NCBI RefSeq assembly: GCF_006345805.1
Contig: NC_043000.1
Coordinates: forward strand, 88,598,001 to 88,662,000
Source: Octopus sinensis
Taxonomy: Eukaryota
DNA: 64,000 nt
Direction of reading: 5' to 3'
A model generated the notes under the pieces. It worked only from the letters and a program-made list of their open reading frames with translations, was not told the origin of the DNA and ran no database searches. Positions 17,190-58,997 of the stretch are shown piece by piece (positions within the stretch are counted from its first letter, which is position 1; every line of letters begins with the position of its first letter). The translations under genes and the position numbers were made by a program.

Positions 17190-17402
17190 CTTTCTACTGA
17201 CAGTACAAAACCTGAAATTTTGGGGGCGGGACTCGTCTGTTGCATCGATTCCAATGTTTCACTGGTATTTAATTTATCAACACCGAAACGATTAAAAGCA
17301 AAATCGACATCGGCGGAGTATTCACTCAGAACGTAAAGACGGACGAAATGTCGCTCAGCATTTTGCCCGGCATTCTAATGATTCGGCCAGCTTGCCGCCT
17401 TA
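17190..17402 (-). mobile_element. SINE family A, short-tail variant
   Basis: Reverse complement begins aaggcggcaagctggccgaatcattag; flanked by (AAT/AAC)n. Confidence 0.8.
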
Positions 17403-31186: not shown

Positions 31187-31193
<7 letters not shown>

Positions 31194-31260
31194 GGCAAAC
31201 CACTATGTGGACACCCTTATGCTAGCATAAGGGTGTCCACATAGTGGTTTCCCTCTAATA
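31187..31260. repeat. 74-bp loopless palindrome at the end of a PLE-type terminal repeat (repeat extends to ~31370)
   Basis: tattagaggcaaaccactatgtggacacccttatgctagcataagggtgtccacatagtggtttccctctaata, one mismatched pair; downstream atatgctagaccactgg shared with ~45143-45159. Confidence 0.9.
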
Positions 31261-31384
31261 TGTGTATAATACAATTTTACTGAAACTTCATTTTTTTTAT
31301 ATGCTAGACCACTGGTGTGAAATCGATGTTAATTAAATTGATATCTAATTTCTCACCTTCATTTTAAATATATATATATATATA

Positions 31385-32085: not shown

Positions 32086-33328
32086 AGGCGCAGGCATGCC
32101 TGTGTGGTGTGAAACTTGCTTCCCAACCACATGGATCCTGGTTCAGGGACCTAGTATTTTCATTCGCAAAATATGCATTTTTCAAGAGGAAGTAAAAATC
32201 TGAAAATCGGCTATAATAATGTAGTCTTCCAGTCTCGTTGCTACGAAGGTATGATGTTGTGGAGAAAAAAATTGGAGGAAAAAGTTAGAGGTTTAAAAGT
32301 CGGTAAAACTCTCTAGCCAATAGTGAGACAGAAATTTTCTGCGTTTAGCGGAGCGGTGTCAACTTTAAGTTTGGCCCTGTGAAATGTATTGTTTAGCGTC
32401 TGTGACATGAGCTGTTCATTGTAGGTTTCTAAAGAAACAGAAATACCTAATAAAATCGACATGTATCATCTTACTGTTTGTTTTGTCTCTTCAATTATTG
32501 TATGTTTTTATCATTTTTTTAGATGTTATATTAATATATTTGCTTATTTCAGTTGTATGTATACCTGTCATGTATTTGTGTACATCATTAACATATAAGT
32601 GTATGTGGATGTATATATTCATATATAAGTTTATATGTACATTTATGCATTCATGTCTGTGTGTGTGTGCGTGTATGTGTGAGAAAGCGTCTGTGTGTGT
32701 GCTGTGTGTGTGAGTGTTTGTGCATGTGCGTCTGTCACCAAAACTCCAAAGTTGAGTAATGTTTTCATGCTTGGATTTGTAAAATACTATAAGAATAACA
32801 TACATCAAGTAAACAATATGTAAAAATACTAACATGGGAAAAGCACAGAAAAATAGTAACACACCGAAGCAGAGAAAAATATGTAATATACTAACACACA
32901 GAAAGATTAAAACAAAATACGTGGGTGAAAAGAATATCATGGTGTGTGGAATCAAGAGTGAAAAATCAACATAGAACAATATGCAGCACGGCACAGCATG
33001 AACCACAACACAACGTTCGGTTACATGGGAACAAACTGCAAGTACCACACTGTCTGTTGATTGACTAAAATTACCCAAATTTCTCAACTCTAATTCCAAA
33101 TAACTTCAGATTCTTTAATTTACGAGATAAAGTAATTGGTTGATCGTAATCAAAATTCAGAGTTGTATCGATACACCAAAATTGAAAGCAATCTGAGCAA
33201 AATTAAATTTTGCGAATGAGAAGACTAGATCCGGGTTCAGTACCGGGCCAATATCTTCTACTATAGCCTCAGATTGACCAAAGCCTTGTGGGTGGATTTG
33301 GTAGACGGAAACTGAAAGAAGCCCGTCG

Positions 33329-33366
<38 letters not shown>

Positions 33367-33590
33367 GGTATGTATGTGTGTTTACGTGTGTGTCCGGGTT
33401 TTTACACTTTCATCATTTGACAACCGATGTTGGTGTGTTTACATCCCCATAACATAAGCGGTTCGGGAAAAGAAACCGGCAAAATAAAAAACAGGCTTAT
33501 ATAAGTATCTGGAAGCGATTTCTTCGATCAAAAGGCTGTGCCCCAACATGACCGCAATCAAATGACTGAAACAAGTAAAAGAATATAAGA
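32086..33590 (+). mobile_element. CORE-type SINE family B split by a DNA transposon
   Basis: Head at 32086-32146; the rest resumes at 33233 after the duplicated ggttcag. Confidence 0.8.
32147..33232. mobile_element. Non-autonomous DNA transposon with GGA(T/C)C TIRs and 8-bp TSD (Merlin-like)
   Basis: ggacctagtattttcattcgcaaaat versus attttgcgaatgagaagactagatcc; TSD tggttcag/gggttcag. Confidence 0.75.
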
Positions 33591-34063
33591 ATATATATAC
33601 ACACACATATGTATGTACGTATGTATGTATGTATTATGTATGTATGTATTTATGTATGTATGTATGTATGTATGTATATATGTATGTATGTGTATGTATA
33701 TTATCTTTTCCTTGTTTTAGTCGCCAGTGATGCTGGAGCTCCGCTTTAAAGGGTTTTAGCCGAATGAATCGCCCTAGTACTTATCTTTAAAATTTATCTA
33801 TGGTTGAGTTGCTAATTAACGGTTGGTGGGGGCACTAACATACAGAAACTCATTCACAAGGCGTTGATCTCAGCGGGTCCACATTAGAAGACACTTCCTT
33901 ATTTATCTATATACTTATGTGTAGGTGTGTATGTTTTGTATGTGTGTGTGCGCGCGTGCATGCGTGTGAGTGTGTGCGTGTGTGCGTACGTGTGTGTATG
34001 TGCCTGTGTGTATTTGTGTGTGTGTATATATATACATAGATATGTCTGTATGTATACGTATAA

Positions 34064-34290
34064 GGCGGCGAGCTGGCAGAAACGTTAGCACGCCGGGCGA
34101 AATGCGTAGCCGTATTTCATCTGCCGTTATGTTCTGGGTTCAAATTCCGCCGAGGTCGACTTTGCCTTTCATCCTTTCGGTGTCGATTAAATAAGTACCA
34201 GTTACGCACTGGGTTTGATATAACCAACTTAATCCGTTTATCTGTCGTTTGTCTCCTCTGTGTTGAACCCCTTGAGGGTAGTAAAGAAAT
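34064..34290 (+). mobile_element. SINE family A (long-tail variant)
   Basis: Close match to 2031-2264. Confidence 0.9.
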
Positions 34291-34329
34291 TTGTATATAT
34301 GTATATCGCCATTTTATAGAATACCCTGT

Positions 34330-35674
<1,345 letters not shown>

Positions 35675-37134: not shown

Positions 37135-38400
37135 ACACAAATAATGCAGTTTTTTTTCAATTGCATGAACTAAAAGTCGGAGGGGTACGGTATAAACTAC
37201 CTGCATCAACTTGCTACAAAAGTAGGTAATACTTTTACCTTGTCCTTATTCTTAGTGACAGTTTTGAAGAGTGCAGTTCAATTTTAACAGTTGTTCTTTT
37301 CAAATGGAAGTGACAAAGGATCTTATTCGGCATATTTTGTTTTATGAGTTCAATAAAGGCAACAACGCAACGCAAAGTGTGGGGAATATTAATGTAGTAT
37401 ATGGGGATCAGACAAGAAGCGTAAGCCAATTTCAACGGTGGTTCCCAAAATTCCGAGCCGTAAATTACAGCCTGAGCCTCGTCCTGGAAGATGTGTAGAA
37501 CTTAATGAGGACGTCCTGCAAACCCTGGTGGAACAAAATCCCATATCAACTGTTGAAGAACTAGCAGAGAAGCTTAGATTTGGTAATTCAACCATTCATC
37601 GCCACCTGTGTGCCATCAGAAAAGTCAGCAAATTGGGTCAATGGGTTATTCACAAAATTTCCGAGTGTAATCGCACGCAGAGGGTGAATGCGTGCTCTTC
37701 TTTGCTGTCACGTCTCACGAATGAATCTTTTTTTGACAGAAAAGTGACTAGTGACTAGTAATGGGTTCTCTATAAAAATGTCTAGCGCCGATGACAGTGT
37801 GTCGGGAAAACATAAACACCGGCACCCCAAGTTAAAGAAAGTCTTCACACACATAAGATGTTGCTATCTCTTTGGTGGGATATGAAAGATATAGTCCACT
37901 TTGAAATTATAAACCCAAACCAAACGATAACATAGGAGATCGATTACAAGCTGTTTGAGCGGCTTAAGTCAGCGCTAGAAGGAAAATGACCATCTTTAGT
38001 TTCAAGACAAAAGGTGTTCTTCCATCAGGATAATGCTTGGCCACATACCGCGAAGATGACATACCAAAGGCTGGAGCAGTTCGAAAGGGAAACGATGCTC
38101 CATCCACCATATTCCCGGACAATGCCCCGTCTGATTACCATTTATTCCGCAGTCTTCAAAATCATTTGGATGGAAAAAATATGAATTCTGTAGACGCGGT
38201 CAAAACAGCAATGGAGGAGTATTTTTCGTCACGGACAAATGAATTTTGGAACAGGGGCCTTGAAAGTCTACTAGATAGATGGAAAAGCATTGTAGATAAT
38301 GAAGGAGAGTATATTTTAGATTTAAAAAGAATTTTGTCTATTTTAATGTTGAAAAATGTCAGAAGTATAGGAAAACCGCATTGTTTATGGGACGACTCAA
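37135..38400 (+). pseudogene. Near full-length mariner (DD34D) element, transposase with frameshifts and stops
   Basis: MEVTKDLIRHILFYEF.., KLGQWVIHK, VTSD, PDNAPSDYHLFRSLQN; 3' TIR aaaaccgcattgtttatgggacgactcaa-TA. Confidence 0.92.
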
Positions 38401-38423
38401 TATATATATATATATATATATAA

Positions 38424-38755
38424 GCTTTTATTGTTTTGCTAGTTTCAGTCATTTCACTGCGTACAGTCATGCTGGATCACCTCCTTTAGTCGAAGATATC
38501 GATCTCAGGGCTTATTCTTTGTAACCCCACTGCTTATTCTATCGGGGTTTTTTTTTGCCGAACTGTTAACTTACAGGAATGTAAGCACACCAACATTGGT
38601 TGTCAGGCAATGTTGTGGGCGCAAAGGAACATACAAATATACCGATTCTATCAGTTCCACTCACGAGGCTATAGTAGAAGACACTTGCCCAAAGTGCCAC
38701 GCAATGGGACTGAATCCGGAAACCATGTGTTTGGGAAGCAAGCTTCTTACCACAC
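38424..38755 (-). mobile_element. CORE-type SINE family B (deleted)
   Basis: Reverse-complement similarity to 25751-26164. Confidence 0.8.
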
Positions 38756-38785
38756 ACAGAATATAAATATGTATACATATATACA

Positions 38786-41887: not shown

Positions 41888-44372
41888 TCATTATTCAATT
41901 TATTTCGAGATTTCTTACTAATAAAGACAGAATCGGTTTCTAACCTAGATCCAAGGTTCCTTCATTGGAATTTCAACATAAACAACAGGGTATGTATGAT
42001 TGTATGTATGTATGATTGTATGTATGTATGTATGTATGTATGTATGTATGTATGTATGTATGTATGTACGTACGTATGTATGTATGCCTGTGCAGATTTG
42101 TGTTTTTATTGTATGTACTCTCATGTATATAGTTACATATCTAAACATGGTCATAAATATTTAAATGATAATCTTCTGGAAAGTTTTACAGATTGTTAGA
42201 GTTCCTGTGATGGATTAGATCTATAGTCTTCTAATTAGCTTTCTCCATTCTAGTTTTGAGAAGCCTAATTTCTCAAGATCGGTATTTAGGCAGTGTGTTA
42301 CATATCCCAGGGCCCCAATAATTACACGTATAAACCTGATCTTGTAATTTCTCAATAGTTCAGCATAGGTGTTCTCTTTATCACTGATCTTCAGCCTTAT
42401 GTTAGCAGCCACTGGGCAACTAATTTTCACAACTGTACACATTTTCTCTTCTCAATCCCAAGTCATTATATCAGGCTTGTTGAGCTTACATTTTATTGAG
42501 GTCTTCACTGGTACATTCCACCAGTATTCCTTTTTATTATGAGTGGCTATGGCTTCTATCATATTGTGGGGTTTTATTTTTTCGTCGTCTGGATTATCCT
42601 TCCGACGGATTTCATTATAGAGTGCCCCAGCTACAACGCCAATTCTCATCGGTAGATAATACCGTGATGACATTTGTCGGACCACTTCTTATGATGTGGG
42701 TGATATCTTCAGTGTGAACTCAACAAAGTATGTATTGGTTGTCATATTGTATGGCTTTTCCCGCATCTCTATCACTTTTTGTGTATCAGGTAATTGGTTG
42801 ATATTTCGTGTTCCTGGATAACAAACGCATACCCTTCAAAGTGGGAGATAGTAACCTGCCTATTCGTCCATGATGGTCGATGTTTCTATCATCACGGAGC
42901 GTTCTACTAACATATCCATACACAGACTTCTGCACATATAGGCTCATCCTTTCATCTGATAATATGTTGCGGTAGAGTCGTGCGACTTCTTTGGGCATGT
43001 ATTCTAGGTTATCAAAGAAAGAGTGTTGCTCAAGGACCTACCTTCCAAGTCTTAAGATATTATCAACCTCATATATGCAAACTTGTTTAAGGGATACACT
43101 TCGACGCTTGTTGGTTAAAAGATGTTGCCGAAGGGATACGATGCGACATTCAAAGACATTTTGGATCGATGTTAAGCCTCTGCCACCTTGCTTACATTTT
43201 AGGTAGAGGCGGTATACGTCACTGTTTATTTGGATATTAAGTGTGCATGTTAGTATTTTTCGGGTTTTCACATCAAAGGCTCAGATCTCATCAAGCGTCC
43301 AATCAAGCAACCCAAATGTTGCCATGAGTACTGGTACTGCAAAAAATTGGGGGCCACTGTTTTATTGAATGCAAAGAGTTCTGAGGTCCAAATTTACTTT
43401 AGTCGGCTGTAATATTCTTTAGTGACGCGTATTTTGTTACAGGTGCCATTGTAAGATATATTTCCATCCACCCCTAGAAACCTGTAACATTCCTCATCAG
43501 ATAAAGAGGAAACACTCAAATCATTGATGGAGATGTTACTAGTCTGGTTTATACTTTTCCCTCTTTTCAGAACCGTATAACAACATTTATCCTGACCAAA
43601 CTCCAACTCTACATGCTTTGAGAATGCTTTAATTAGAGCAAAGCTCTTTTTCTTTTCATGTATATTTTTTCCATGAAGTTTTAAGTCATTCCACTAAGAA
43701 ACAGTGTGTAATTTTGGTATTTCTGTTTCCTTGTGAACCAGTGAGATGTCTTTCAGATTTCCTTAACATGAATGATACTTTACAGAAAGTATAAACAACA
43801 TCAGAGAGAGGCTGTATCTTTGGTATATGCCTTTGCGATACGGTATTCTATCGGTGATAATATAGTCACTCTTTGTGTTTAATTCAAAAATGGTAGGCCA
43901 CGATGCAGTCAGGTTAGCTATGGCTTTGTCTAATTTCACTGGAACATTAGCATGTTGAAGGGCTTCTAGCATCCATGAGTGGGAAACAGAGTCAAAGGCT
44001 TCCTTACAATCTAGCCACATTGAAACTAGGGTTTTCCTATGCTCTCGCACCTCTGACATCACAGTTTTGTTGATTAACAATTGCTCGGCACTTCCCCAGT
44101 CTCCCTTCTTCCCAGTTGCTTGTTCTGTTGTGATAATCTTATTGGTTTCAAAATGGTCTTGGAGAAAGAGGTTTAAACATGGTGTATATATCTTATACAA
44201 TAGGTTCTGGCATGCAATTGGCCTATAGATGTTTGCCATGTGGGTGGTCCTGAATTTGGGGGTCAATTTTGTCGCCGCGAGAGCTAACCAGTGTGGTATG
44301 CTACTATTCCCAATGAAAGCTTGCTGGTACAGATTGATAATATTTGGTCGGTAGAGTGTTAACTACTTGTAC

Positions 44373-44809: not shown

Positions 44810-44840
<31 letters not shown>

Positions 44841-44847
<7 letters not shown>

Positions 44848-45590
44848 GGGTAGAAGTTGATATTTATCAATTAAAACCAGTGGTCTAGCATATTAAACTC
44901 AAATCAAACTCAGCACAAGACCAAAGCAATAAACAAGTGAAAATATACGAAATAAAATAATTACGGGTAATTAATTAAGGGTAGAAATTGATATTTATCA
45001 ATTAAAACCAGTGGTCAAGCATATTAAAAAAAGAATCCGAAGATTAAAATATTTATATATCTAGCATGTTGACTGTCCACTTTTCGTGTTCAGTCCTAAA
45101 TTGGTATATATAAATATTTTAATCTTCGGATTCTTTTTTTTAATATGCTAGACCACTGGTTTTAATTGATAAATATCAATTTCTACCCTTAATTAATTTT
45201 ATATAAATAAATATGTTCTCTAACCGATAAATTGACTGCTGCTAATTATTAGCTGCAGGCTGGTTTTTTCGGGTCTCAACGCGCCAAAGTAGAGGCATTT
45301 GAAAGATATATTCGAATGTAATAGGTTGAACTCCATGCACGCGATACTCCAGTATCGTTTTTGCATCTAGTCCAGCAAATTGCATTTATAACGGGCCATG
45401 CTGATGAATGCTACAGTTATCCTTGCGGAAAATAATAGCCGAAACTGATCAGTACATGAGTAATTATTTTATTTCGTATATTTTCACTTGTTTATTGCTT
45501 TGGTCTTGTGCTGAGTTTGATTTGAGAACATAATCTTTTGTGGAGAATGGCGATTTGACGTCTATATCTAGCATGTTGACTGTCCACTTT
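44841..45590. mobile_element. Rearranged PLE-type terminal repeat (direct and inverted segments) carrying a hammerhead
   Basis: 44841-44896 repeats at ~44974-45028; 44972-45060 is inverted at 45105-45198; 45383-45590 is homologous to the reverse complement of 57835-58042. Confidence 0.85.
45397..45458 (+). ncRNA. Type I hammerhead ribozyme, intact core
   Basis: CATG-CTGATGA-[stem II GCTA..ttat..cc ttgc gg..ataa..TAGC]-GAAAC-T-GATC-A-GTA-CATG; predicted cleavage after GUA at 45454. Confidence 0.8.
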
Positions 45591-47591
45591 GAACACCAAA
45601 TGCTAGCAGCTGGAACAATTACCGTAAAGCATATGTTTTCGACCGTTTAACGTTTCTGTCTGCTAATCGTGCTTTATTATTCGTACTATAAGCGTAAAGG
45701 AGAGAAAAATAACAGAAGTATTAAATAACCGAAGTAAATATGATATACTTATTTTCGTTTCTTTTGTCTGTGTCTTTAGATATTATATTTCTTCCTATGT
45801 TCACCTTGTTATTCCTCCTTCTGAAAACTATGAGAAAAAGAAAATTCAAAATCTAAAATTCAGATAATTGATTGTATTTTCTTCACATATTTGTGTTTCG
45901 TGCCATTGTTCTACTAAATGTTTAGAAATTATGGATAAATTTGAACGCAGACAGCCGGTTGCAAAGAACAATGAGAATTCGTCTCATGTTCTTGTTTATT
46001 TGTCACTTCACTATCTAAGACAGCGGAATAAAGTGGGAATAATTAACGGCTTCGTGGATTTTAAAGATGTATTCGTATGAATAAAAGATTCTAGCATTTA
46101 AATTAGTAGCGAAGAGTTAAGTTACAAATTGAAAATCTCTTTGGTAAAGTAGAACTTTATCCAACATTTCTATATCAGGATTCATTAGGTGTAACTCCAA
46201 AATAAGTTATTTGTAACGAGATTATATGCCGTATTCACAAACATTTAGTATGCTATAAGAACCAAAGATCTAAATATAGGTGTTTAGTTATTAAAATTAA
46301 AAAGAGGATGTATGTATGTATATATATATATATATATATATATTTGGGGGAGGTAGGTATGAATGTATGGACGTATATTAGTCATTTTCTATTCCTCGAC
46401 AAAATTAGATCAATGTGAACAATTAACATTTCAAACAAGTAATTAACTATTTAATTGCAAAAAAAATAATAATCTCGCTGTTGGCTTACATGATGGAAGA
46501 GTGGTATTATTAAGTGGCTTTGTATTGTGGAATCAAATCTAAAGAAAATGGGTCGTTTCTTACGCTTATATCGTTTTTAAGATCACTTTGCTTTCCTCCT
46601 CTACTATCTCAAATTTTCCTTTCATTCGACTGAGATCGATAAAATATAGTACTAGACAAGTACGTAGGCCTTGTCTCTAAGTCAGAATTGCCCCTAAGTC
46701 AGTAGAATGGCAGAATATTTGAAACAGCGAGCAAAATTGTTTACCTACACGCAATATTTTCATCTCCAGTCAAACCTCGATCAGTTTTGCGTTACATCAT
46801 TCTAGTGTTGAAAATATAAAGGACCAATCAAGTACTGCGGTCGATATACTGCTTTGTACCAGTTTTAGACATCAGTATTGACCTTATTATTTTGTACCTG
46901 TACTTTTTTAACATTGAATCCGACAGAGTGAAATTCCCCTTTAACTTATATGGGGTAGATAAAATAAAATATCACTCAAGTACTGTATCACTATATTCTA
47001 CATGATTCTCCTACATAATGCGAAACAACGGTGTTTGTTACAGACGCGAACGAAGACTGGGTCATAAGATTAATAAGGTTTTCTAATTCTTTGTAACTAT
47101 TTCATTTGAAGATTTATAGAAAAAACATAATACACAAATTTTCATTCTAAAGAAAAGCATTGGGAGTGGGTTCCAGTGTTTTAATCCCTTGCAAAATAAC
47201 GTGATTTATTTTCAAGTGCAGGTGTACATCTCACACTTCTTCCAACTATGCATTTCGTATTTTATTTAGAAAAAACAAAACCCACAAAATTATTACTGTT
47301 GACAGCTGGTGTTAACGTGTTTCTAGTTGCTTCTTACGAGAGATTTCCAAATTCAGTACCACTATTGGCACGTCATTCTATGACGTTCCCTTTTTTATTT
47401 ACTATTTTTTTCTCTGTAATTGACTGTCTTCGCTTTTCTAACAACTTTCATTTTCATATAATTCCGTATAGACCAATATATTACATCTCTACAAATACAA
47501 CGTCAGAGAAAATCTAATTGCTAGCGAGAAAGAAAAAGTCGATTTGCACTAGCATTTAGGAATAAATATTTTTAATTTTTTCGTTGTATTA

Positions 47592-48167
47592 AGGCGCTGA
47601 GCTGGCAGAAACGTTAGCACGCTGGGCGAAATGCTTGGTGGTATTTCGTCTGCGGCTACGTCCTGAGTTCAAATTCCGCCGAGGTCGACTTCCCCTTTCA
47701 TACTTTGGCGGTCGATTAAATAAGTACTACATACGCACTAGGGTCGATATAATCGACTTAATCCGTTTGTCTGTCCTTGCTTGTCCTCTCTGTGTTTAGC
47801 CCCTTGTAGGTAGTAAAGAAATAGAAATAGGTATTTCGCCCTCTTCATGTTCTAAGTTCAAATTCCGCCACAGTCAAATTTGCCAGTCGTCATTTCGAAT
47901 TTGATAAAATAAGTACCAATTGAGCACTAGGGTCGATGCAATCGACTTACCCTTCTCCCGAAATTGCTGGCCTTGTATCAAAATTTCGAATCAATATTTT
48001 CGTTGTATGCGAAGGCGGCGAGCTGACAGGATCGTTAACACGCCAGGCAAAATGGTTAGCGGCATCTCATCCGTCTTCACGTTGTGGATCAAATTCCGCC
48101 GAGATCGACTTTGCCTTTCATTCTATTGGAGTCGATAAAATAAGTACCTTTTGAGTATTTTATCCCT
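47592..48167 (+). mobile_element. Cluster of three tandem/nested SINE family A copies
   Basis: Long-tail copy 47592-47825, partial copy 47829-47990, copy 48012-48150; target motif ttttcgttgt occurs three times. Confidence 0.85.
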
Positions 48168-48474
48168 CAATATTTTCGTTGTGTTCAAGACAGTGTAATG
48201 CTCAAAAAGAAAAAAAAGGTGTTACCTATTTTAGTTATGTTCCTTTATTTTATTTATTTATTCCTTTTTCTAGTTCAAATCTCATCTACAATAGTATCTT
48301 TCATCCCTCTGAAACCAATAAAATATTCATCATTTACTGCAATCTATTTTATTGGCTTGTGCTACAGTTATTAGGGGAATAAATGTTAATGCTGAATAAA
48401 CTGAAGCAGTCTCACGTTTCGAATCCGCTGCAAAATATATAATTTTAGATGATTAGAAAATAAAGCTATCATTA

Positions 48475-48745
48475 ATATGGATTTCAAATTTTGACTCAAT
48501 GCCAGCAGTTGCGGGAAAGGAGGGGAATCAATTACATTGATTCCAGTGCTCAACTGGTACTTTATTTCATCGACTCGGAAATGATGAAAAGCCAAGTGGA
48601 CTCCTTCGGCATTTGAATTCTGAACGTGAACTCGGACGAACTGCCACTAATCATTTTGTCCTACGGGGTAAAGTTTCTTCCCGGAAGAAATGCTGCTAAT
48701 CATTTCGTCCGACTCGGCAACGATTCTGCCAGCTAACCGTCTTAA
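48475..48745 (-). mobile_element. SINE family A, short-tail variant with internal duplication
   Basis: Reverse complement starts aagacggttagctggcagaatcgttg; ctaatcatttt is repeated. Confidence 0.75.
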
Positions 48746-49417
48746 AACTGTGATTAATATTGAGTTCCACTATTCGAAGACATATTTTGCTTCTATTACA
48801 CAATTTCCAGCTTCGATACTCTAGTACCATTGTTGCCCAATTCTACATTGTATAAGTATCTCTTTGCCTGTGTTATAAATCAGTGTTTGTTAACATTTAA
48901 TCACGTATAGTAGATATGAATTTAGAAAGCAAACGGTGAGACGCTGTAAGATCTATGACTTTTTTAATAGTATAGAAAGTGAAATAGATTAATTCAGCTA
49001 ATGAGAATGCTTTGGTTCTAATTCATTTAACTCATTAGTATTTCCCATTGTAACTTTCTTATCAATGTTCTAATCATCACCAAATGATATATCATTAAAC
49101 TGCACTTAACTTGCAACAACAAGAATGACTAAATATTATTATAACGATTATTTGTTTTATTTTCCATAACACTGTCAAGTGAGATGATGATAATGCAATT
49201 GTTGAAGAACGCAGTCTGTTCATTACCTTCTATTAAAGTGCTATTTTGATACCAATATTTCTGCTTTAATCAGCAATTAGAGTGAAAGACATCGTTTGAA
49301 GTACGTCTTAATAATAGCAAATCTTGGAAAGTATTTACTCTTCAACTTGGTCAGATTTTTCTGCTTAATATATTGATGATGACGATGAAGATGGTAGTGG
49401 TGGTAGAGGAGGGGGTG

Positions 49418-49454
<37 letters not shown>

Positions 49455-49764
49455 GAAGTAATGTCGTGAAAGCAGAACTAGGGTGATTTTCAAAATGCAC
49501 TCCACCCCAATTACAGTAATATCGACAAGCTATATTTACTAAGAATGAAATGAGACAGTTGGTTATCTTTTATTTGTTTCAATCATTAGGCTACGGTAAT
49601 GTTGGGACACCGCTTTGAAGAATTTTTGTCGAATGAATCGACATTTTTAAAGTGCTAGGTTTTTTGAAGTGTGTTACTTACTCTATCGATATATTTTGCC
49701 AAACCGCTATGTTACAGGGAGGTAAACACAGCAACACCGGTTGTCAGACGATGGTGGTGGTGAT

Positions 49765-49818
<54 letters not shown>

Positions 49819-49819
<1 letters not shown>

Positions 49820-50711
49820 GTTAATTCAAACATGAAAACACAACAACGCGAGGACGTGGAACAAGTATAGTGTTATTGGACGCTCAGGAAAGGAAAGAGG
49901 AAAAGAGGATGTAGCGTCTCGAGTAGAGCTCTTCGTCAGAAACATCGAAAAAGGAAAAATCCAAGGAAGGCAAGACGGAGGAAAAACATCGCCAACGATA
50001 GACACGCGGTCACATATTGAATGACCTGAAGGGAATGAGTAAACAAAAGATGTTTTCAAAGACAGGAGAGTGCAAGAGAAGGAGGCATGTGTCCGTATGT
50101 GTGGGTATGTACGTGCACACATGTCTGTTTTTGTGTATGTGTGTGTGTATAATGATAGCACGTGTGTCTGTGTGTGTGTGTGGTTCTGGCTGTTAATCTG
50201 TGTGTCGTTTAAAGTATCGTTTAAAGTCATAGTAAGAATTGATAGTAGGAGTGCTCCTGTTGTGTCTCTCCCTACACATGTGCGTGAGAGAATGGTCATT
50301 GGAAGGTACTGGTACTTTGAAGTATGTGTGTGTGTATGTATATGTAGTGTGTGTGTGTGTATATGTACGTATGTGTGTGTTCATGTGTGTATGTGGGTAT
50401 GCATAGGGATTGTGTGTGTGGGGGGATAACTGTGCTTTACTTTCTGTATGTGGGCGTGTCTGCTTGTATGTGCGTATGTGTGTATACATGTATATATAAT
50501 TGTGTGCGTATATATATAAGCCCCTACCGAAAAGCTAGTACTAAAATCTCCCTAAGTGATGAACGCAGTAGTTGTACTAGCAACTAATATTCGCAGCCAC
50601 TTCAATATGGCTGTTCCGTTCGAACGCACTTTACTGCGTTTTACCCTCTCTGTGTACGATAATACTTATTTTGTTGTGTTTTCTCTTCGTGTTTTCATGT
50701 TTGGATTTACT

Positions 50712-50716
<5 letters not shown>
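49819..50716. mobile_element. Non-coding PLE-derived element with inverted termini in (TA)n
   Basis: agttaattcaaacatgaaaacac versus gtgttttcatgtttggatttact; left end homologous to 31880-31975; degenerate minus-strand hammerhead at 49907-49946 (CTGACGA-A-GAG..CTC-GAGAC). Confidence 0.7.
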
Positions 50717-50744
<28 letters not shown>

Positions 50745-50747
<3 letters not shown>

Positions 50748-51058
50748 ATAGACAATGTAAGACGACAAAAGAATGAAAGAGACCTCGATATAATGTACAT
50801 AGAGGAATTTATCTGTAAATGTAATATGTGACAATTATTCGGTAGCCATGATAAAACTCCGAGTTTGGGATGTCGTGGTGGAAATCCATGCCGCCATCTC
50901 TTTAAGCAAAGATTCCCATTTGTTTAACGGTCATTTTCATACCATTTTTTCCGATGGCCTGATAACTGAAGAGATGGCGGTGTAGATTTCAACCCCGACT
51001 TACAAAACTTGGAGTTTTATCATGGCTACCAAATAATTGTTATATATTACATTTACAT
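50745..51058. repeat. Fold-back terminal repeat with a hammerhead motif (50960-51022)
   Basis: 50813-50900 is inverted at 50969-51058; + arm reads TGATAA-CTGAAGA-GATG...(a)AAAC-TTGGA-GTT-TTATCA. Confidence 0.75.
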
Positions 51059-51187
51059 ATATATATATATATATAAATTGTTATTCCGACCAGAAAATCC
51101 TGGGTAGCTGTATTTACATGATTTGTGTTCTTTTATTTCAAGATTATTTTCACTGTCTTAGCTGATCGATTCTTTTCTACATGCTGA

Positions 51188-51223
<36 letters not shown>

Positions 51224-51225
51224 TG

Positions 51226-51279
<54 letters not shown>

Positions 51280-51295
51280 CAAATATATATAATAA

Positions 51296-51493
51296 ATTAT
51301 AGATAAGGGTAAAAGAAAAACAATTTCTATGCCAATATGATGAAATATAAGACCTTAGATCGTAATTTCAGTTGGCTTGCTTTCCTCGTTTCAACATGCT
51401 GTGTAGTTATAGCGAAAATTATTGTATGTAGTTAGACGATCTATTTTTCAGCATATTGGCACAGAATTTTTTTCTTTTTCCCTTATTTATAAT
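51296..51493. repeat. Degenerate fold-back next to (TA)n
   Basis: attatagataagggtaaaagaaaaacaatttctatgccaatatgatgaaa versus tttcagcatattggcacagaatttttttctttttcccttatttataat. Confidence 0.75.
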
Positions 51494-51659
51494 CGTTTAT
51501 AATTTTCACCTTAAAATGCATTTTAGTATGCTGGCCATTGATAAAATTTTTTGAAACATTTTATCCTATATTAGAAGTGTATATATATATACAATTAGAC
51601 GAACTGAGATAGGAATAGAAGTATGAAAGCAATGAATAGTAACTTACGAAACCGCCGGT

Positions 51660-52020
51660 ATACTCTTTACTCTCTTTTACTTGTTTCAGTCATTTTACTG
51701 CGGCCATGCTGGAGCACCGCCTTTAGTCGAGCAAATCGACCCCGGGACTTATTCTTTGTAAGCCCAGTACTTATTCTATCGGTCTCTTTTGTCGAACCGC
51801 TAAATAACAGGGAAATAAACACACCAGCATCGGTTGTCAAGCAATGCTAGGGGGACAAACACACACACACAAACACACACACATACACACACATATATAT
51901 ATACATATATACGACAGGCGTCTTTCAGTTCCACTCACAAATCCACTCACAAGGCATTAGTCGGCCTGGGGCTATAGCAGAACTGAACTCAGAACCATGT
52001 GGTTGGTTAGCAAGCTACTT
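51660..52020 (-). mobile_element. CORE-type SINE family B, body and tail (head displaced to 57451-57488 by the Tx1 insertion)
   Basis: Joining across the TSD restores ggcgcaggagtggctgtgtggtaagtagcttgctaaccaaccacatggttc. Confidence 0.9.
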
Positions 52021-52248
52021 TATTTCATATAATTTGCCATTTAGGCATTTACAAAGAGGGGACAAACAAGGACAGACAAATATAAAGGGTGAAGTAGCTT
52101 AACACAGTTACAATTTTCGAATGAAATTACGGATAAGATTATAAACAATGAATTTTACGAAGGCAATGTTTAAAAATATTAATGATCATGTCGAAGGACG
52201 GACACCCAGCCATCCGGGTAGAACCTTTACTTTCTGATCCGCTCACAC

Positions 52249-55200
52249 TTACCTGGTGCCAAACATAACCATCTTGTATGCCACGGGCTTCCATCTTTTC
52301 ACAAACATATCTCGTGACAGACACCTCTTCTCCAGCCTGATTTTGCTACTGAAGTGGTAACTGAAAAAGTTAATCAACCCCTGGCCAGAGACAAAGGTGC
52401 CTGTCACTATACCTTTCGTACGCGTCTTCCATACTGTTTCTTTCAGTATGGCTACTACACAGAAAAGACAAGCCTTTCTTTCCCTGTTAAGGAAAGGGGG
52501 CGGCATAATCTCGATGATAGACTCAGCTGATAGCTGTACTCTTCCCATCACTGACAACAGTTGTTCAACAAAAGCTATCAGTCCCGATAATTCCGGACAC
52601 TCCACGAATGCGTGCAAGACGGTCTCCCTATCCTGCTCACATCGCGGGCATGTCGGCGAGACGGCACTACCGTGCCTTGACAGCTTGTCGCTAACAGGTA
52701 AAGCCGCACGGAAACACTGCCAGGCTAGGGATTTCTGGTAATTATCCAGATACCCCGGCCCGAACGTCCTCCGGAACAGGTTGACCAACTGATTTTCATT
52801 GTAGCCCAGGGTCTCCCCCAAGGCGTCTTCGGACTTAATCTCCACTAACCCGCTATAGAAATCCGTGGTGGAACTCCTGTTGCCGGCGTTGCCCACCCGA
52901 GATAGTAGCTGGAGCGCCTGACGGCACTCCAAATGCCATTCACTCAGTTTAGGTCTCCGCTTGATCCATGCACCGATGTCCGTTAGGGATGTTAACTGGG
53001 GAAGGTAGAACCGGACGTGCGGCGACCACACCTGCTCTCCATCCAGGTAAAGCCAGAGGTGCCTCAACCTTAACGCGAGTTTTCGCATCCTCAGCCAAGG
53101 CATCCCTAGCCCACCCTTTAGCGGTTTCTGGCAGCAGACAGAGCGCTTACAAGTGGCTTTCCTCCTTTCCACAAAAATCGGAAAAGGATTCTCTCCAACT
53201 TGTTCAGCCACAAATCGGGGCAAGGCACCACGGTCAGACGGTAGGTGATTACTGATGCTATAAACATCTGCACCACCTCCGCCTTCCCTAGCAGGGATAA
53301 CGCCCGCCCAGACCAGGTCTGGGTTAGAGCGGTCACCTTGTTGGCCACCTCACTCCAATTTTTCTCAATCTGGAGGTCTGGCCCGAACCAGACTCCGAGC
53401 AGCTTAACAGGACCTTCCGTCCAACGCCCTACGACGTTATTGGACGGCATCGGCTTGCCCCTCCAGGTGCCGAGTTGCAAACCGACCGACTTGTCCTTGT
53501 TAACCTTTGCTCCTGCCACCACCTCGTAGCTTTTGATGGCCTCTTCCACCACTGGAAGCTGGCCTTCGTCTGCCACGATGATGGAGGTGTCATCCGCATA
53601 CGCCGTAGCTCCTCTTCCACACCATAGATCATGCGGCGCGCCCCCTAGTGCCTCCAACTTCCGCAGCAAAGGCTCAAGAGCCAATACGTATAGGAGCGAG
53701 GACAGGGGACACCCTTGACGAACTGAACGCTCGATCCTGAACGGCTTCGAAAAGGAACCGTTCACCTTGACTACAGCCTCGATGTCGCTATACAAAGCAG
53801 CGATCCAACCTCGAAAGGTCGGGCCTAGGCCAGCCTCTCCGAGGACTGCCGCCAGGTACCGATGGTCGACCCTATCAAATGCTTTGGACTGGTCTAAATG
53901 TACCAGTGCTCCCCCTGCGCCAGAAAGCTTCCCCACCCTCTCTAAGGAGTAGCGTATAAGGTGGAGATTGTCGTGGATCGTTCTGCCGGGGATAGCGCAC
54001 GTTTGCGCTTCCCCGACAAGTTTGTCCACGACCCGCGCCAACCTTTTTGCTAGCACCTTGGCCAGAATCTTTAACTCTGTGTTTAACAGAGTTATGGGCC
54101 TGAAGTTCCCTATCTCGTCCCCCTTGTTCGGGTCCTTCCTGATCAACGTCACCGCCCCCCGGCTCGCAGAGTTGGGAATTCTCCCATTCTGCTGCCAGTT
54201 GGCGTAGACGCTAGCCAGCAGGTGCCCGAACAAGTCTGGCATACTTCTATAAAATTCATAGGGCAGACCATCGAGACCCGGCGACTTCTCCCCGGGGCAC
54301 TTTCCCAACACCTCGATTACTTCCTCGGTTGTGATTGGCCCTTCACAGCACTCAGCCTCTCGTGTCGAGAGGCGCGGGCCACCAGACAGGAAGTCCCTAA
54401 GGGCCTCACCATGATCCAGCGTCCCGCACCTCCCGAACAACTCGGCGAAGTGCTTGTGAAGTGCCTCACACATCTCGTCCCGCTTCTTGATCGTGCATCC
54501 GTTTTCATCAATAGAGACCCAATTGTGGAATCGTTTCCACGCTGTGTTTCTATCGTACGGGCCCATCCGGCAACATTAATTCCCTCACGGCCCAATGCTC
54601 GTACTTTAGCCCGGACTCTACATCCCTCATGTTTGGTTTTGAGGTGACGGTCTAATGCCGTTCTCGCCGCTAAAATGTGAGATGCAGAGCCCAACCTCAA
54701 CGCCTCCTCTAAGTTCTTAACTAGTTGCCCTTCTATTCTAGCCCTATCTAGTCTTAGTTGTTTACTAAATCTAATGGACTCGAATCGAATGGCTCTTTTG
54801 AGGGTGAACCACCACCGATTATTAACCACGGCTCCGGTTAACGCCATCTGCACTAACACCTTAATCCGGCTACGGTATGCCTCGCGTGTCAAAATAGACT
54901 TGTTCAGCTTCCAGTAGCCGGTTCCTATCTTAAGTGTGCTATCTATGTCCAGTCTACACGTGACCATTCTATGGTCAGTATAGGGCACCTGGACGAGCTG
55001 TGGACAACTAAAACTAGACTTATCTCTAGTTCTTATCACTATCCTGTCTAGATAAGACTTGAACCTTCCGTCGCCACTCATCCAGGTCCACTCTGGGACG
55101 TTCGGATGGTCAAGTCTGTAACGATCTGCCAGCTGAAACCGCTTAAGCAGATCCATGAGACGTGAGTTCACTTTCCTATAGATCGAGCCAACGCTATCGA

Positions 55201-55648
55201 TGTGTACGTCAACGATAGCATTAAAGTCCCCTAATATCACTAAAGTCTTCGACGTCACGAGAAAGCCCTCTAGGCGCCGATAAAAATCAGTTTGGAAACC
55301 TCTAGCACAAGGTGCATAGAGTCCGATCAACCTGAAGGCCTTACTGCTGTATGTCACATCAAGGACGACCAGCCCACCTTCTGGGTCTACATAGACTGTA
55401 CTTGTCTGTAGAGCCAAGTCTTTACGGATCAGTACCACTACGCCCCCTCGCCCTCCGGTCTGGCCAGGAGACATGATTTTCTCGTAGCCATTCAGGAGAG
55501 GCGAGAAGGTTTGTAGGCTGTCCAGCTTGCTCTCTGTAGCAACCATCACATGTATATCATGTGATCTGAGGTCGTCGAGGAAACAAGCCTGCTTCCACTT
55601 CGAACTCAGACCACGCACATTTAAACAACCAAGGTTAAGCGAAGCCAT
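52249..55648 (-). pseudogene. Tx1 ORF2 (AP endonuclease, reverse transcriptase, C-terminal zinc finger), split by two frameshifts
   Basis: LNVRGL, ILGDFN, LDRI, TDH (APE); FRPITLLN, LDQSKAFDRVDH, RQGCPLS, YADD (RT); CPRC..ETVLHAFVEC; overlapping ORFs 54317-55648, 53118-54566, 52249-53223. Confidence 0.93.
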
Positions 55649-55665
55649 TACAAAAAGTAAAAGTT

Positions 55666-57068
55666 CTACTTACATTTCGTTGGAGAGGTGGGGACCGACC
55701 TCACCACACGTTTGTGGGCCCCTTCTTTCTCCTCTTTCTTCAGATAGTCCGGCAAGTTCGCGATATGCCGGATGGCGTTTGGGTGTCTGTCTTTTAATTG
55801 TTTGAACGTTGTTTCCGCAATCCACGCGTGTCTATTTCGATCTTTGTATTTGTTGTACAGTCTTGCTGACTGATGCTGAACCACAATATCGTTTATGTAT
55901 TTGTCTTGTGTGTCGAATTCAATTAATATGAGTTCATTTTCTTTTTTGTCTTCTTTTTCTGGGCCAGTTGAGCGGGATTTTTTTTCCGTGTCTGTAGTGT
56001 GTCTTTGTTTTTATTATTTTTTGTAGGGGATGTGGACGGGGATGCTGCACGAATTCTTTTACGAACTGGTGTAAATCCCCCCTCTGATACCTCCATGGTA
56101 TCGTCTGGGGTGGCAATAGTTTGTTCGGTAGGCGCCGCAGTTTTTAGGGGTGTGGGAGGTTTTAATAGTGTAGGGGTTTGTGAGTGCGAGGGCTGGGTTT
56201 TTTCTTCAGTCTGTTTTGGGGTTGGCACCGTAACAGCAGGAGTGGGATTTTTTGTTTTTGTAGGGGTAGGTGTGTTTGCAAGGGTAGGGACTTTTTTATT
56301 ATCTGAGGGGCCTGGTGTCTGCGGTTTCTTTTGCTTGTCTGGACAGTCTACACGAATGTGGCCCTTTTTGCCGCAGGCGTAACAGGTGGGTTTTCGGCCT
56401 TCGACCTGTACCCTGAGGGCTACGTTCTCGCCCACAAGCACCCTCTCAGGAAGGAGCTGCAGGTCCTCCGCTATTCCTTGAATTAATATATTAATGTTAC
56501 GCCCGAGCCAAAATAGAGGGGTAGAGCATGTTACTTGTAGTATTTTTATTTTGTCTGCCCTTTTGTATAACAGGGCGGCCACTACCTCTACCGGATCTAC
56601 TTCCGGCGGGGCTTCTACAATCCTGACCCGGGACGTCCTGCGTCCCCTATAGCTTGGGAAAAGTACCACCTCCTTGGTTTTTAGGGGGTTCACAGAATGC
56701 CCGCGGGCCATTTCTTCCCCCGAGAAGCGGACATCCACAGTGCCATATGCCCGTCCCCTGGCGACGTACACGATGTCCTTCCAAATCGGGGACAGGCATT
56801 TCTCGATGGTGCTTTTTTCAAAGTGTTTGAACCTTCTGCTTTGTGGACAGAAAGTTTTAAACACTACGGTCTGCTTCTCGGTCTCCACGATACTGGCAGA
56901 GGGTGATATTTTAACATCACCACCCTCCTCTTGCATTCTTTTAAATAGCTCGACGAGCTAATTGACATCGATGTCAATGTTCTCGGTAGCCACTGCGGCT
57001 ACCGCAGAAAATTTTTTAACATTGCTCTCCTCAAGAGCACTACTTTCGTGAATAATTTCAAAAGGCAT
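55666..57068 (-). pseudogene. Tx1 ORF1 (gag-like, zinc knuckle)
   Basis: CYACGKKGHIRVDC within ORF 55923-56936; in-frame upstream ATG at 57068 separated by one TAG (56958-56960); another open frame continues from ~55985 to 55666, just before the ORF2 ATG. Confidence 0.85.
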
Positions 57069-57745
57069 TATTCTGTTGAAATTAGACAACACAAAAATTA
57101 CGAATATTGGTTTCCCACAAAACTGGGAAACCTATAAAAAGTTTTTCTTCCAAAGTAGTTCAAAAAAGCAGTTCAAAAATTCCAATTCCCACCCCCCATT
57201 CGGGGGAGGGGCACGAAAATAGTCTGACAGGACTATATATAGTCACGTAAATAAAAAGCCACAATGGCTAACAGTTCAACGGTAAGAAATTATTCAATTA
57301 TTTCCCGGTAAAACCGGAGAACAAGACAGTTCAGCAACGTTTAAAGGCAAATTTTCAGTAGTAGGAATTAACAACACAGCAAAACTCTTACCGGGAAGAA
57401 AACGCGTCCAAACCGTAGTACGGTAAGCAAAGTCAGTCTTCTGTCAGCGAGGTTAGCAAGCTACTTACCACACAGCCACTCCTGCGCCTTGAATCTCGTT
57501 AATAATCTCACAATAAATGACTTTTATTACTTTTATTCCTATCTCATTTCATCTAATTGTATATATCTTTCGTTACTTTTCATAAAAGCCTTTATTTTTT
57601 TTTACTAATTTTTATATTTATTTACAATGTGCATTTTCGTTGATTTTTCTTACTTTCCCCTTACATTACCACCCGTAGTTTCTATTTTCTTTTTGTAACA
57701 TATATATATATGTGTATGTAGTATTTATATATATATATTATATAT

Positions 57746-57776
<31 letters not shown>

Positions 57777-57811
57777 CTATATATATGTATATATATTATA
57801 TATATATATTA

Positions 57812-58039
57812 TATACCAATTAGGACTGAACACGAAAAGTGGACAGTCAACATGCTAGATATAGACGTCAAATCGCCATTCACCACAAAAGATTATGTTC
57901 TCAGATCAAACTCAACACAAAACCATAGCAATAACAAGTGAAAAATATACGAAATAAATAATTACCCATGTACTAAATAGTTTCAGCTGTTATTTTCCGC
58001 AAGGAAAACTGCAGCCATCATCAGCATGGTCCGTTATAA

Positions 58040-58042
<3 letters not shown>
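57812..58042 (-). mobile_element. Solo ~230-bp hammerhead-bearing terminal repeat between two (TA)n tracts
   Basis: Homologous to 45060-45110 and 45383-45590; (TA)n on both sides. Confidence 0.85.
57966..58029 (-). ncRNA. Type I hammerhead ribozyme, intact core
   Basis: Reverse complement CCATG-CTGATGA-T-GGCTG..ttttcc ttgc ggaaaa..CAGCT-GAAAC-T-ATTT-A-GTA-CATGG; predicted cleavage between 57971 and 57970. Confidence 0.85.
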
Positions 58043-58766: not shown

Positions 58767-58842
<76 letters not shown>

Positions 58843-58844
<2 letters not shown>

Positions 58845-58997
58845 GATCTGTTTCTTTCAATTTCCGTCTACCAAATCCATTCAAAAGGCTTTGGTTGAGC
58901 CTAGGCTATAATAGAAGACACTTGTCCAATGTGCCACGTAGTGAGACTGAATATGGATCCGTGTGGTTGAGTAGCAGGTTTCTTACCATATAGCCGC
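58843..58997 (-). mobile_element. Partial CORE-type SINE family B (head)
   Basis: tttccgtctaccaaatcca...agaagacacttgtccaa. Confidence 0.75.

What the first reader, a model, noticed from the sequence alone, without database searches (positions are those of the whole stretch)
45397..58029. Two intact type I hammerhead ribozymes in a short non-coding repeat family (retrozyme/pLTR-like)
Seen: copies at 45397-45458 (+) and 57966-58029 (-) both have CUGAUGA and GAAA cores, a CAUG/CAUG stem I, a long stem II capped by UUGC and a 3-bp stem III ending in a GUA cleavage triplet. The copies differ mostly in loops and show paired changes in stem II (GCUA/UAGC versus GCUG/CAGC). The 57812-58042 copy is a solo ~230-bp non-coding unit between (TA)n tracts. 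Established: Penelope-like elements carry hammerheads in their pseudo-LTRs, and non-autonomous HHR retroelements (retrozymes) exist. Inference: this is a self-cleaving, PLE-mobilised RNA family with a more extended stem II than minimal PLE hammerheads, possibly uncatalogued in this lineage. The stem II closing pair is non-canonical in both copies (U-C, G-U), so activity is not guaranteed.
Basis: partly seen in the sequence, partly recalled or inferred. Interest (0 to 1): 0.85.

Follow-up and report, generated by a model that had tools for sequence, protein, structure and literature searches.

The report
Hammerhead-bearing Penelope-type mini retroelement relics
The two motifs have the full sequence pattern of hammerhead ribozymes and lie in a high-copy, protein-free repeat of about 500 bases that is likely a jumping element moved by Penelope-like retrotransposons, so this is a new example of a kind already described in animals rather than a new mechanism.

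Summary
Both hammerhead motifs are real. They are the only two descriptor hits in 64 kb (0.07 expected by chance) and keep all 12 core positions. Their anatomy is the published Penelope-like-element (PLE) type: an extra base before helix II, a 4–5 bp helix I, and a short helix III predicted to form only in a dimer. The ACU/AGU helix III and (TA)n flanks best match Hydra-clade PLEs.

Public contigs show the odd helix II closing pairs are probably copy-specific: G stands at 10.1 in at least 96% of summed contig depth. The repeat is larger than the 230-bp solo copy. It is a high-copy, non-coding unit of about 507 nt whose end joins its start in other copies, whose 3' ends abut TA-rich repeats, and which left inverted fragments at locus A. 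No PLE gene lies beside either copy.

Best reading: relics of a non-autonomous PLE derivative (retrozyme-like). Cleavage, RNA circles and the partner element are untested. Helix II (32 nt) is somewhat longer than the published animal examples compared (at most 26). The scan noted this kind before in other genomes. New member of a known kind; interest low.

The parts
45397..45458 (+). Hammerhead A, type I. C3 at 45401, extra A 45408, U10.1 (45409) opposite C11.1 (45440), two-segment helix II with UUGC loop, perfectly palindromic 10-nt helix III segment 45444-45453, predicted cut 45454/45455
57966..58029 (-). Hammerhead B, type I. C3 at 58024, extra U 58017, G10.1 (58016) with U11.1 (57985), helix III loop not palindromic, predicted cut 57971/57970
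45056..45590 (+). Main block of locus A: one 507-nt period of the non-coding unit plus a 28-nt direct repeat (45056-45083 = 45563-45590)
   Evidence: D2, spacing 507; stops in all six frames; multi-copy along its whole length and single-copy from 45608
45216..45382 (+). Segment upstream of the hammerhead; part of the family, absent from copy B
   Evidence: contigs bridge it to the hammerhead and to the preceding 3' domain in other copies (table 8)
45061..45214 (+). Predicted structured 3' domain: a CTAGCAT...ATGCTAG clamp, then a terminal hairpin. Other copies run into TA-rich repeats at about 45117 and 45194-45214
   Evidence: fold z -4.7; pattern 2 hits against 0.01 expected; loose ends (table 7)
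44841..44897 (-). Inverted fragment of the unit's 3' end (matches 45139-45195), abutting (TA)n; likely the true 3' end of the locus A insertion
44898..44964 (-). Inverted fragment identical to 45460-45526 (67/67), starting 5 nt after the predicted cut
44969..45060 (-). Inverted fragment of 45106-45198
   Evidence: I3, I4
44815..44842 (.). (TA)14 tract, likely insertion target of locus A
57810..58042 (-). Copy B: 233-nt fragment of the unit (hammerhead plus downstream part), between TA arrays
31190..31367 (+). Related TA-flanked element with the same 3' clamp domain, a 68-bp palindrome at its 5' end and no hammerhead

Best explanation
Both motifs are hammerhead-pattern copies within a high-copy, non-coding unit of about 507 nt that is likely a non-autonomous derivative of a Penelope-like retrotransposon end (retrozyme-like), predicted to self-cleave only as a dimer and likely copied into (TA)n sites by the proteins of a separate, unidentified PLE. 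Shown: the motifs, their anatomy, the unit's extent, its lack of coding capacity, its high copy number, the end-to-start junction in other copies, the TA-rich 3' flanks and the inverted fragments. Inferred: (1) a head-to-tail or read-through transcript carries two hammerheads. (2) They pair through helix III, since the single-molecule helix III is predicted not to form, and cut after GUA; this could release a unit-length RNA that may be circularised. (3) A PLE reverse transcriptase/GIY-YIG protein acting in trans recognises the structured 3' domain, nicks (TA)n DNA and starts copying inside the RNA. This leaves 5'-truncated, inverted and partial-tandem copies. Both window copies span the cut site and locus A is longer than one period, so their templates were likely uncleaved, multimeric or circular RNA. 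Each copy has since picked up its own change at the 10.1-11.1 pair and is likely weaker than the family norm.
For: Motif far above chance. It matches 3 of the 4 emergent traits listed for PLE hammerheads in PMC4209133: extra base between 9 and 10.1 in both copies; G10.1 in 96-100% of summed contig depth in 4 of 4 runs, with no listed variant at C11.1 (20 of 60 variant rows not shown); palindromic helix III in copy A. In monomer ensembles the helix III pair has probability <=0.06, while the lowest-energy two-copy fold is the double hammerhead for both copies (A -38.8 against 2 x -14.6; B -45.1 against 2 x -20.0 kcal/mol). 17 of 26 Hydra-clade rows in PMC8557442 File S2 have an ACU...AGU helix III and nearly all Hydra families insert in (TA)n (counted by eye). 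Single contigs across 45222-45358 have 150-200 times the depth of the unique flank (8157 against 41.8; 1440 against 9.37). Contigs differing at 7-12 letters bridge the 3' domain into the upstream segment, and others join about 45590 to about 45117, so the unit closes on itself in other copies. There are 7-14 stops in each of six frames. No RT or GIY-YIG lies beside either copy. Fragments inside locus A are 96-100% identical to the main block, against 91% between A and B, as expected from one complex insertion; such inverted, partial-tandem structures are described for PLEs. Decayed PLE genes lie elsewhere in the window.
Against: No partner PLE was found. The two PLE relics in the window share no nucleotide match with the unit and show no hammerhead at their 3' ends. 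The published octopus Hydra family has a different hammerhead, and three probe motifs were absent from that paper's supplement. No two hammerhead-bearing units lie in tandem in the window, and the contigs are too short to show any. Covariation rests on one A-U/G-C double change between two copies, and core conservation between them is not significant (P=0.12). Copy B's helix III is not palindromic. Depth does not fall steadily toward one 5' end, so the unit's true start is not fixed. In print, 8 of 9 predicted Xenopus retrozyme dimers did not cleave, and one PLE hammerhead cleaved only with its protein and was not needed for insertion in vitro.
Confidence: 0.66

Rival explanations
1. The copies are 5'-truncated pseudo-LTR relics of an autonomous (TA)n-targeting PLE (Hydra- or Neptune-like). 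The 507-nt closure only reflects that element's habit of partial tandem insertion, and no separate non-autonomous family replicates.
For: Most PLE hammerheads occur as single, truncated relics. Partial tandems and inverted 5' pieces are standard for PLEs. Contig depth is about 10 times higher in the 3' domain than at the hammerhead. PLE ORF relics occur in the window.
Against: No ORF adjoins either copy. The listed loose ends before the upstream segment are the unit's own 3' end, not ORF-like sequence (342 loose ends were not shown). The whole 507 nt has stops in all frames.
Confidence: 0.25
2. A classic non-LTR retrozyme in the strict sense: tandem arrays transcribed into abundant 507-nt circular RNAs, with the window holding stray monomers.
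For: End-to-start junction in other copies. One period folds as a stable circle (65% paired, z -4.6, 0 of 60 shuffles as low). GC 34%. Locus A spans 1.05 periods. One run guessed to be RNA holds 86 contigs on the unit and none on the flank (RNA status is a guess).
Against: The retrozymes tested in PMC7229834 are 170-400 nt and carry canonical or near-canonical hammerheads, whereas this one is PLE-type. No array was seen. The fold signal may come from the local hairpins alone. This reading overlaps the best explanation and differs in requiring circles and arrays.
Confidence: 0.2
3. The 3' domain is an unrelated, more abundant TA-associated mobile element, and the hammerhead part is a passenger captured next to it.
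For: The 3' domain has about 10 times more contig depth. A hammerhead-less relative exists at 31190-31367.
Against: The hammerhead part and the 3' domain are continuous in both window copies and in many contigs. 5' truncation alone would give hammerhead-less copies and a 3' excess.
Confidence: 0.07
4. A chance match to the hammerhead consensus in AT-rich repeat DNA.
For: No Rfam hammerhead hit. The two copies are one family, so one event. A descriptor hit arises in 7 of 100 shuffled windows.
Against: Features outside the descriptor also fit: the extra base, G10.1 in the family majority, the palindromic helix III and the double-hammerhead dimer fold. The context is PLE-like.
Confidence: 0.02

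Closest known systems
Minimal and variant type I hammerheads in pLTRs of metazoan Penelope-like elements (Cervera & De la Peña 2014, PMC4209133)
   Same: CUGANGA plus an extra base, G10.1-C11.1 as the probable family norm, helix I of 4-5 bp, enlarged helix II, short palindromic helix III predicted to work as a dimer, dispersed single copies.
   Different: Helix II spans 32 nt in two segments against at most 23 nt in the 56 motifs of Fig. S3 (counted by eye). Helix III is 3 bp. No PLE ORF adjoins either copy.
Hydra-clade PLE hammerheads (Craig et al. 2021, PMC8557442, Files S1, S2, S7), including Hydra-1_Obim
   Same: 3-4 bp helix III, ACU...AGU in 17 of 26 rows; (TA)n insertion; two rows have an extended helix II of 25-26 nt; the clade is reported in an octopus.
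   Different: No RT or endonuclease here, so the clade cannot be assigned. The Hydra-1_Obim hammerhead has a different sequence and lies within about 100 nt of the element's end, whereas here about 160-260 nt follow the cut. The helix III loop is 4 nt, not 1-3.
Non-LTR retrozymes (Cervera & De la Peña 2020, PMC7229834; Li, Clavereau & Pollet 2026, 10.64898/2026.07.22.740005)
   Same: Non-coding, GC below 50%, type I hammerhead, head-to-tail junction, self-paired predicted circle, coexistence with PLEs; 507 nt is within the 51-972 bp range of the 2026 survey.
   Different: No two consecutive hammerhead-bearing units seen; longer than the 170-400 nt circles shown in 2020; hammerhead is PLE-type, not canonical; circular RNA not shown.
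PAc (Poseidon of Anolis; Frangieh et al. 2024, PMC11167929)
   Same: AT-rich target; more than one 3' terminus among copies; copies span an uncut hammerhead.
   Different: PAc is autonomous and its ORF starts in the hammerhead. Here all frames are closed, and the two groups of 3' ends are about 80-100 nt apart rather than a 30-40 bp tail.

Membership tests
Type I hammerhead ribozyme | Three helices around CUGANGA / GAAA / UH, helix I open-ended | tested here: met
   12 of 12 invariant positions in both copies; helices I, II and III can pair
Type I hammerhead ribozyme | Hit to an Rfam hammerhead model | tested here: not met
   no hammerhead family among 143, 3 and 2 matches
Type I hammerhead ribozyme | Site-specific self-cleavage | not testable with these tools
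   only contigs were available; they cannot show RNA ends
PLE-type (minimal/variant) hammerhead | Extra nucleotide between A9 and 10.1 | tested here: met
   A in copy A, U in copy B; U in 90-95% of contig depth
PLE-type (minimal/variant) hammerhead | G10.1-C11.1 pair | tested here: inconclusive
   not met in either copy (U-C, G-U); G10.1 in 96-100% of depth and no listed variant at C11.1, but 20 of 60 rows were not shown
PLE-type (minimal/variant) hammerhead | Helix I 4-5 bp, helix II longer than canonical | tested here: met
   4 and 5 bp; helix II 32 nt
PLE-type (minimal/variant) hammerhead | Palindromic 15.2-16.2 and loop III allowing a dimer | tested here: inconclusive
   perfect palindrome in A, not in B; both fold as double hammerheads in two-copy folds
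Autonomous Penelope-like element | RT plus GIY-YIG ORF next to the pLTR | tested here: not met
   no Pfam RT or GIY-YIG of PLE type in six frames over 3.9 kb on each side of locus A and upstream of B; tblastn with 140 PLE-like proteins hits only 9.7-12.2 kb and 29.3-30.1 kb, plus two E=0.03 hits
PLE-mobilised sequence | 5' truncation, partial tandem and inverted 5' pieces, microsatellite target | tested here: met
   traits as described
Hydra clade of PLEs | 3-4 bp helix III hammerhead and (TA)n insertion | tested here: met
Hydra clade of PLEs | RT with DKT/RWK motifs and CCHH-less endonuclease | not testable with these tools
   no linked ORF and no whole genome held
Non-LTR retrozyme | Non-coding unit with a type I hammerhead, GC under 50% | tested here: met
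   7-14 stops per frame, GC 0.34; no tRNA head
Non-LTR retrozyme | At least two consecutive tandem units each with a complete hammerhead | tested here: inconclusive
   not met in the window (1.05 periods); end-to-start junctions exist in other copies but contigs are too short to show two hammerheads
Non-LTR retrozyme | Abundant unit-length circular RNA | not testable with these tools
   no raw RNA reads offered

The most novel reading that the evidence does not exclude
An abundant cephalopod retrozyme: a 507-nt circular RNA released by a dimer-dependent hammerhead whose unusually long helix II uses its 2x2 internal loop to dock the conserved U1.7, moved by a Hydra-type PLE that reads a structured 3' domain also kept by hammerhead-less sibling families. 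Such siblings would be a natural test of whether the ribozyme helps or only rides on PLE mobilisation.
Probability: 0.2. Interest if true: 0.45.

Novelty: new member of a known kind. Interest (0 to 1): 0.24.

Why it matters
It adds a high-copy hammerhead-bearing repeat family from what is probably a cephalopod genome. A 2026 curated Octopus vulgaris repeat annotation counts PLEs at 6.83% of the genome but has no mention of hammerheads or retrozymes in its main text or supplement. The family is also invisible to Rfam. If circles and dimer cleavage were shown, it would support the recent proposal that animal retrozymes are PLE end-pieces, which that preprint tested only in vertebrates. It would not change what is known about hammerhead chemistry or PLE transposition.

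Tried and rejected
No whole genome is held, so no genome-wide copy alignment or covariation test was possible; no covariance model was built from two copies.

Rfam found no hammerhead; its hits were microsatellite-driven miRNA matches and weak chance matches.

Exact-pattern scans found 0 loci in metagenome contigs, viral contigs and prokaryote genomes, which gives no sign of a viral or microbial source.

No RNA holder is on record among the 24 listed runs. This is no evidence either way.

Two contigs of the run guessed to be RNA start exactly at 45455, the base after the predicted cut. I rejected this as evidence. A one-base insertion in the T run at 45481-45484 puts a graph branch 30 bases on, at 45485, which would start contigs at 45455 if the word length is 31 (assumed from the index description). 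The 3- to 6-fold depth step in the 45453-45483 bin was set aside for the same kind of reason.

An ATG in helix II of copy A opens only 41 codons and is absent from B, so no PAc-like ORF start.

The PLE relics at 9.7-12.2 kb and 29.3-30.3 kb were rejected as the partner: no nucleotide match and no hammerhead. Hydra-1_Obim was rejected as the partner on its different hammerhead and 3' end. A first protein search with the 10-kb relic found nothing. A tRNA-derived SINE was rejected (0 tRNA genes).

Scan look-ups by sequence and by place returned nothing. The paper on dimeric PLE hammerhead variants (Lünse et al., recalled) is not held.
Full report
1. Observation. Both motifs are in the sequence as stated. 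Copy A has C3 at 45401 and a predicted cut at 45454/45455; copy B has C3 at 58024 on the minus strand and a cut at 57971/57970. A type I descriptor (helix I at least 4 bp, II at least 3, III at least 3) found these two and nothing else on both strands; 100 block-wise dinucleotide shuffles gave a mean of 0.07 hits (93 with none, 7 with one). A simpler pattern gave 2 against 0.07. The copies are 90.9% identical over 209 nt, so they count as one family. Rfam's hammerhead models miss both.

2. Anatomy. Between A9 and G12 lie 33 nt in both copies: one extra base, then a 32-nt helix II of a short stem, a CA/AA internal loop and a second stem closed by UUGC. The 10.1-11.1 pair is U-C in A and G-U in B. 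Helix I is 4 bp (A) or 5 bp (B). Helix III is ACU/AGU with a 4-nt loop; the 10-nt segment is a perfect palindrome in A and not in B. Of 9 differences, 4 are unpaired and 5 are in helix II, including one A-U/G-C double change. None is in the 12 core positions, which has P=0.12 by chance. So two copies alone do not show selection.

3. Folding. As single molecules, helix II forms (pair probabilities 0.93-1.0) but helix III does not (0.06 or less). In three of four contexts the core is tied up in a rival pairing. When two copies are folded together, the lowest-energy structure is the double hammerhead with an intermolecular helix III, for both A and B. This is a prediction, not a measurement.

4. 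The repeat is bigger than the finding. Locus A holds a plus-strand block 45056-45590 with a 28-nt direct repeat 507 nt apart. It is preceded by three inverted fragments that are 96-100% identical to parts of the block, and by (TA)14. I laid contigs from 4 of 24 listed public runs on 45050-45950. All of 45050-45607 is covered by 86 to 2450 contigs per run; from 45639 on only one contig covers the flank in two runs and none in the other two. Single contigs over 45222-45358 have depth 8157 against a flank depth of 41.8, and 1440 against 9.37, which suggests at least 150 near-identical copies (inference; the tool warns that summed depth is no copy number). Contigs with 7-12 other letters bridge the 3' domain into the segment upstream of the hammerhead, and others join about 45590 to about 45117. 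So the unit closes on itself in other copies too. Loose ends into TA-rich or microsatellite sequence occur at 45117 and 45194-45214; 342 loose ends were not shown. Depth is about ten times higher in the 3' domain than at the hammerhead, but it does not fall steadily toward one start. The unit has 7-14 stops in each frame and GC 0.34, and one period folds as a circle with z -4.6. Copy B is a 233-nt piece of this unit between TA arrays.

5. Family norm at the closing pair. In one search, position 10.1 (45409) reads G in 96, 96, 98 and 100% of depth in the four runs, and the extra base reads U in 90-95%. Position 45413 reads G in 94-98%, as in copy B. No variant is listed at C11.1 or at any core position, but 20 of 60 rows were not shown. 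The family therefore probably has an extra U and G10.1-C11.1, and each window copy carries its own change. An extra A or U at this place is compatible with cleavage in a viroid hammerhead (PMC3705267, passages). A U-U pair at the base of helix II still allowed cleavage in an axolotl family (PMC7229834, parts 2-3 of 6 and passages).

6. Surroundings. No PLE ORF adjoins either copy. Six-frame Pfam scans over 3.9 kb on each side of locus A and upstream of B found only a non-LTR RT at about 43.5-44.2 kb and low-complexity hits below cut-off. An L1/Tx1-like LINE lies at 52.2-57.0 kb, between the copies. tblastn with 140 relatives of a decayed RT/GIY-YIG frame located PLE relics at 9.7-12.2 kb and 29.3-30.1 kb. 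They have no nucleotide match to the unit and no hammerhead. One of the best relatives (45% identity) is named from Octopus bimaculoides; the other three looked up carry no name. With the microsatellite-rich, AT-rich window this suggests a cephalopod, which is an inference, not a result. A TA-flanked element at 31190-31367 shares the unit's 3' CTAGCAT...ATGCTAG clamp (2 hits against 0.01 expected) but has no hammerhead.

7. Comparison with print. PMC4209133 (parts 1-2 of 4 and supplement parts 1-2 of 3) describes PLE hammerheads with a helix II of 7-8 bp, a helix I of 4-5 bp, an unpaired base before helix II, G10.1-C11.1 and a palindromic helix III. They are mostly dispersed as single relics and cleave weakly, as dimers. 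PMC8557442 (passages, section 11, supplement parts 2 and 52 of 59 and searches) defines the (TA)n-targeting Hydra clade. By eye, 17 of its 26 hammerhead rows have an ACU...AGU helix III, against 1 of 56 rows in the 2014 alignment. The longest animal helix II in these two sets is 26 nt, against 32 here. Its octopus family has a different hammerhead. The 2026 preprint 10.64898/2026.07.22.740005 (parts 1-3 of 5, supplements not seen) argues that animal retrozymes are non-autonomous PLE end-pieces of 51-972 bp, and found cleavage in 1 of 9 tested dimers. PMC11167929 (parts 1-2 of 4) shows internal RT initiation, AT-rich targets, protein-assisted cleavage, and uncleaved RNA as the main template. 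PMC13282606 (part 1 of 3, term searches of text and supplement) gives PLEs as 6.83% of the O. vulgaris genome and does not mention hammerheads; its repeat library itself was not seen and may hold this family. Searches for 'hammerhead ribozyme' with 'octopus', 'retrozyme' with 'cephalopod' and a five-term search found no description of this family. Repbase and Dfam could not be checked.

8. Mechanism. Most likely (0.66) this is a non-autonomous PLE derivative. A transcript with two hammerheads would cut after GUA as a dimer. A PLE protein in trans would bind the 3' domain, nick (TA)n and copy from inside the RNA, giving truncated and inverted inserts. Both copies span the cut site and A exceeds one period, so their templates were likely uncleaved, multimeric or circular. 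The main rival (0.25) is that these are plain pLTR relics of an autonomous element not seen here. The strict circular-RNA retrozyme reading (0.2) overlaps the best explanation. U1.7 is kept in both copies and is reported to make a rate-enhancing contact with loop II in other hammerheads (PMC11875169, passages). A contact with the internal loop here is speculation.

9. Verdict. The catch is correct and was missed by Rfam, but the kind is known. It works like a PLE-type dimeric hammerhead in a retrozyme-like element; membership of strict retrozymes or of the Hydra clade is not established. Earlier scan notes report the same kind in other genomes (unchecked). New member of a known kind; interest 0.24.

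Noticed in passing
window 31190-31367 (+): TA-flanked element with a 68-bp near-perfect palindrome at its 5' end and the same 3' clamp domain as the hammerhead unit, but with a different inner hairpin sequence and no hammerhead; probably a sibling family.
   Followed up: partly
window 9700-12200 (-): Decayed Penelope-like RT/GIY-YIG gene with inverted duplicates of parts of itself at about 11960-12300; no hammerhead found at its 3' end.
   Followed up: partly
window 29260-30310 (+): Second decayed PLE fragment (end of RT, Cys-rich linker, GIY-YIG), 5'-truncated next to a microsatellite.
   Followed up: partly
window 52249-57000 (-): Near-complete L1/Tx1-like LINE: ORF1 with a zinc knuckle, then endonuclease, RT and zinc-binding domain in three long frames broken by frameshifts.
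   Followed up: no
window 42000-44360 (-) and 3811-4410 (-): Further decayed non-LTR RT fragments (Pfam RVT_1).
   Followed up: no
window 45460 and 45082-45094 (+): A GT-AATT right after helix I and a pyrimidine-rich stretch ending in CAG later in the unit could be splice sites of a PLE-type 5' UTR intron; one inverted fragment starts exactly at 45460. No contig showed that splice among the listed joints.
   Followed up: no
window 45591-45612 (+): The single-copy flank just after locus A contains the second arm of the 3' clamp motif, so copy A can still close a shortened hairpin; it may be a deletion remnant, a joining microhomology or chance.
   Followed up: partly
window 25742-26167, 31384-31698, 33245-33613, 34719-35185, 38400-38756, 51659-51982, 58811-58988: Abundant ~350-450 bp dispersed repeat family with an internal microsatellite, at least 7 copies.
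   Followed up: no
window 2022-2261, 16217-16448, 17185-17402, 34055-34310, 47574-48148, 48528-48681: Second dispersed SINE-like repeat family of ~240 bp; ARAGORN calls no tRNA in it.
   Followed up: no
window 37393-38423 (+): Two frames that look like a decayed mariner-type transposase (recalled resemblance; no Pfam hit).
   Followed up: no
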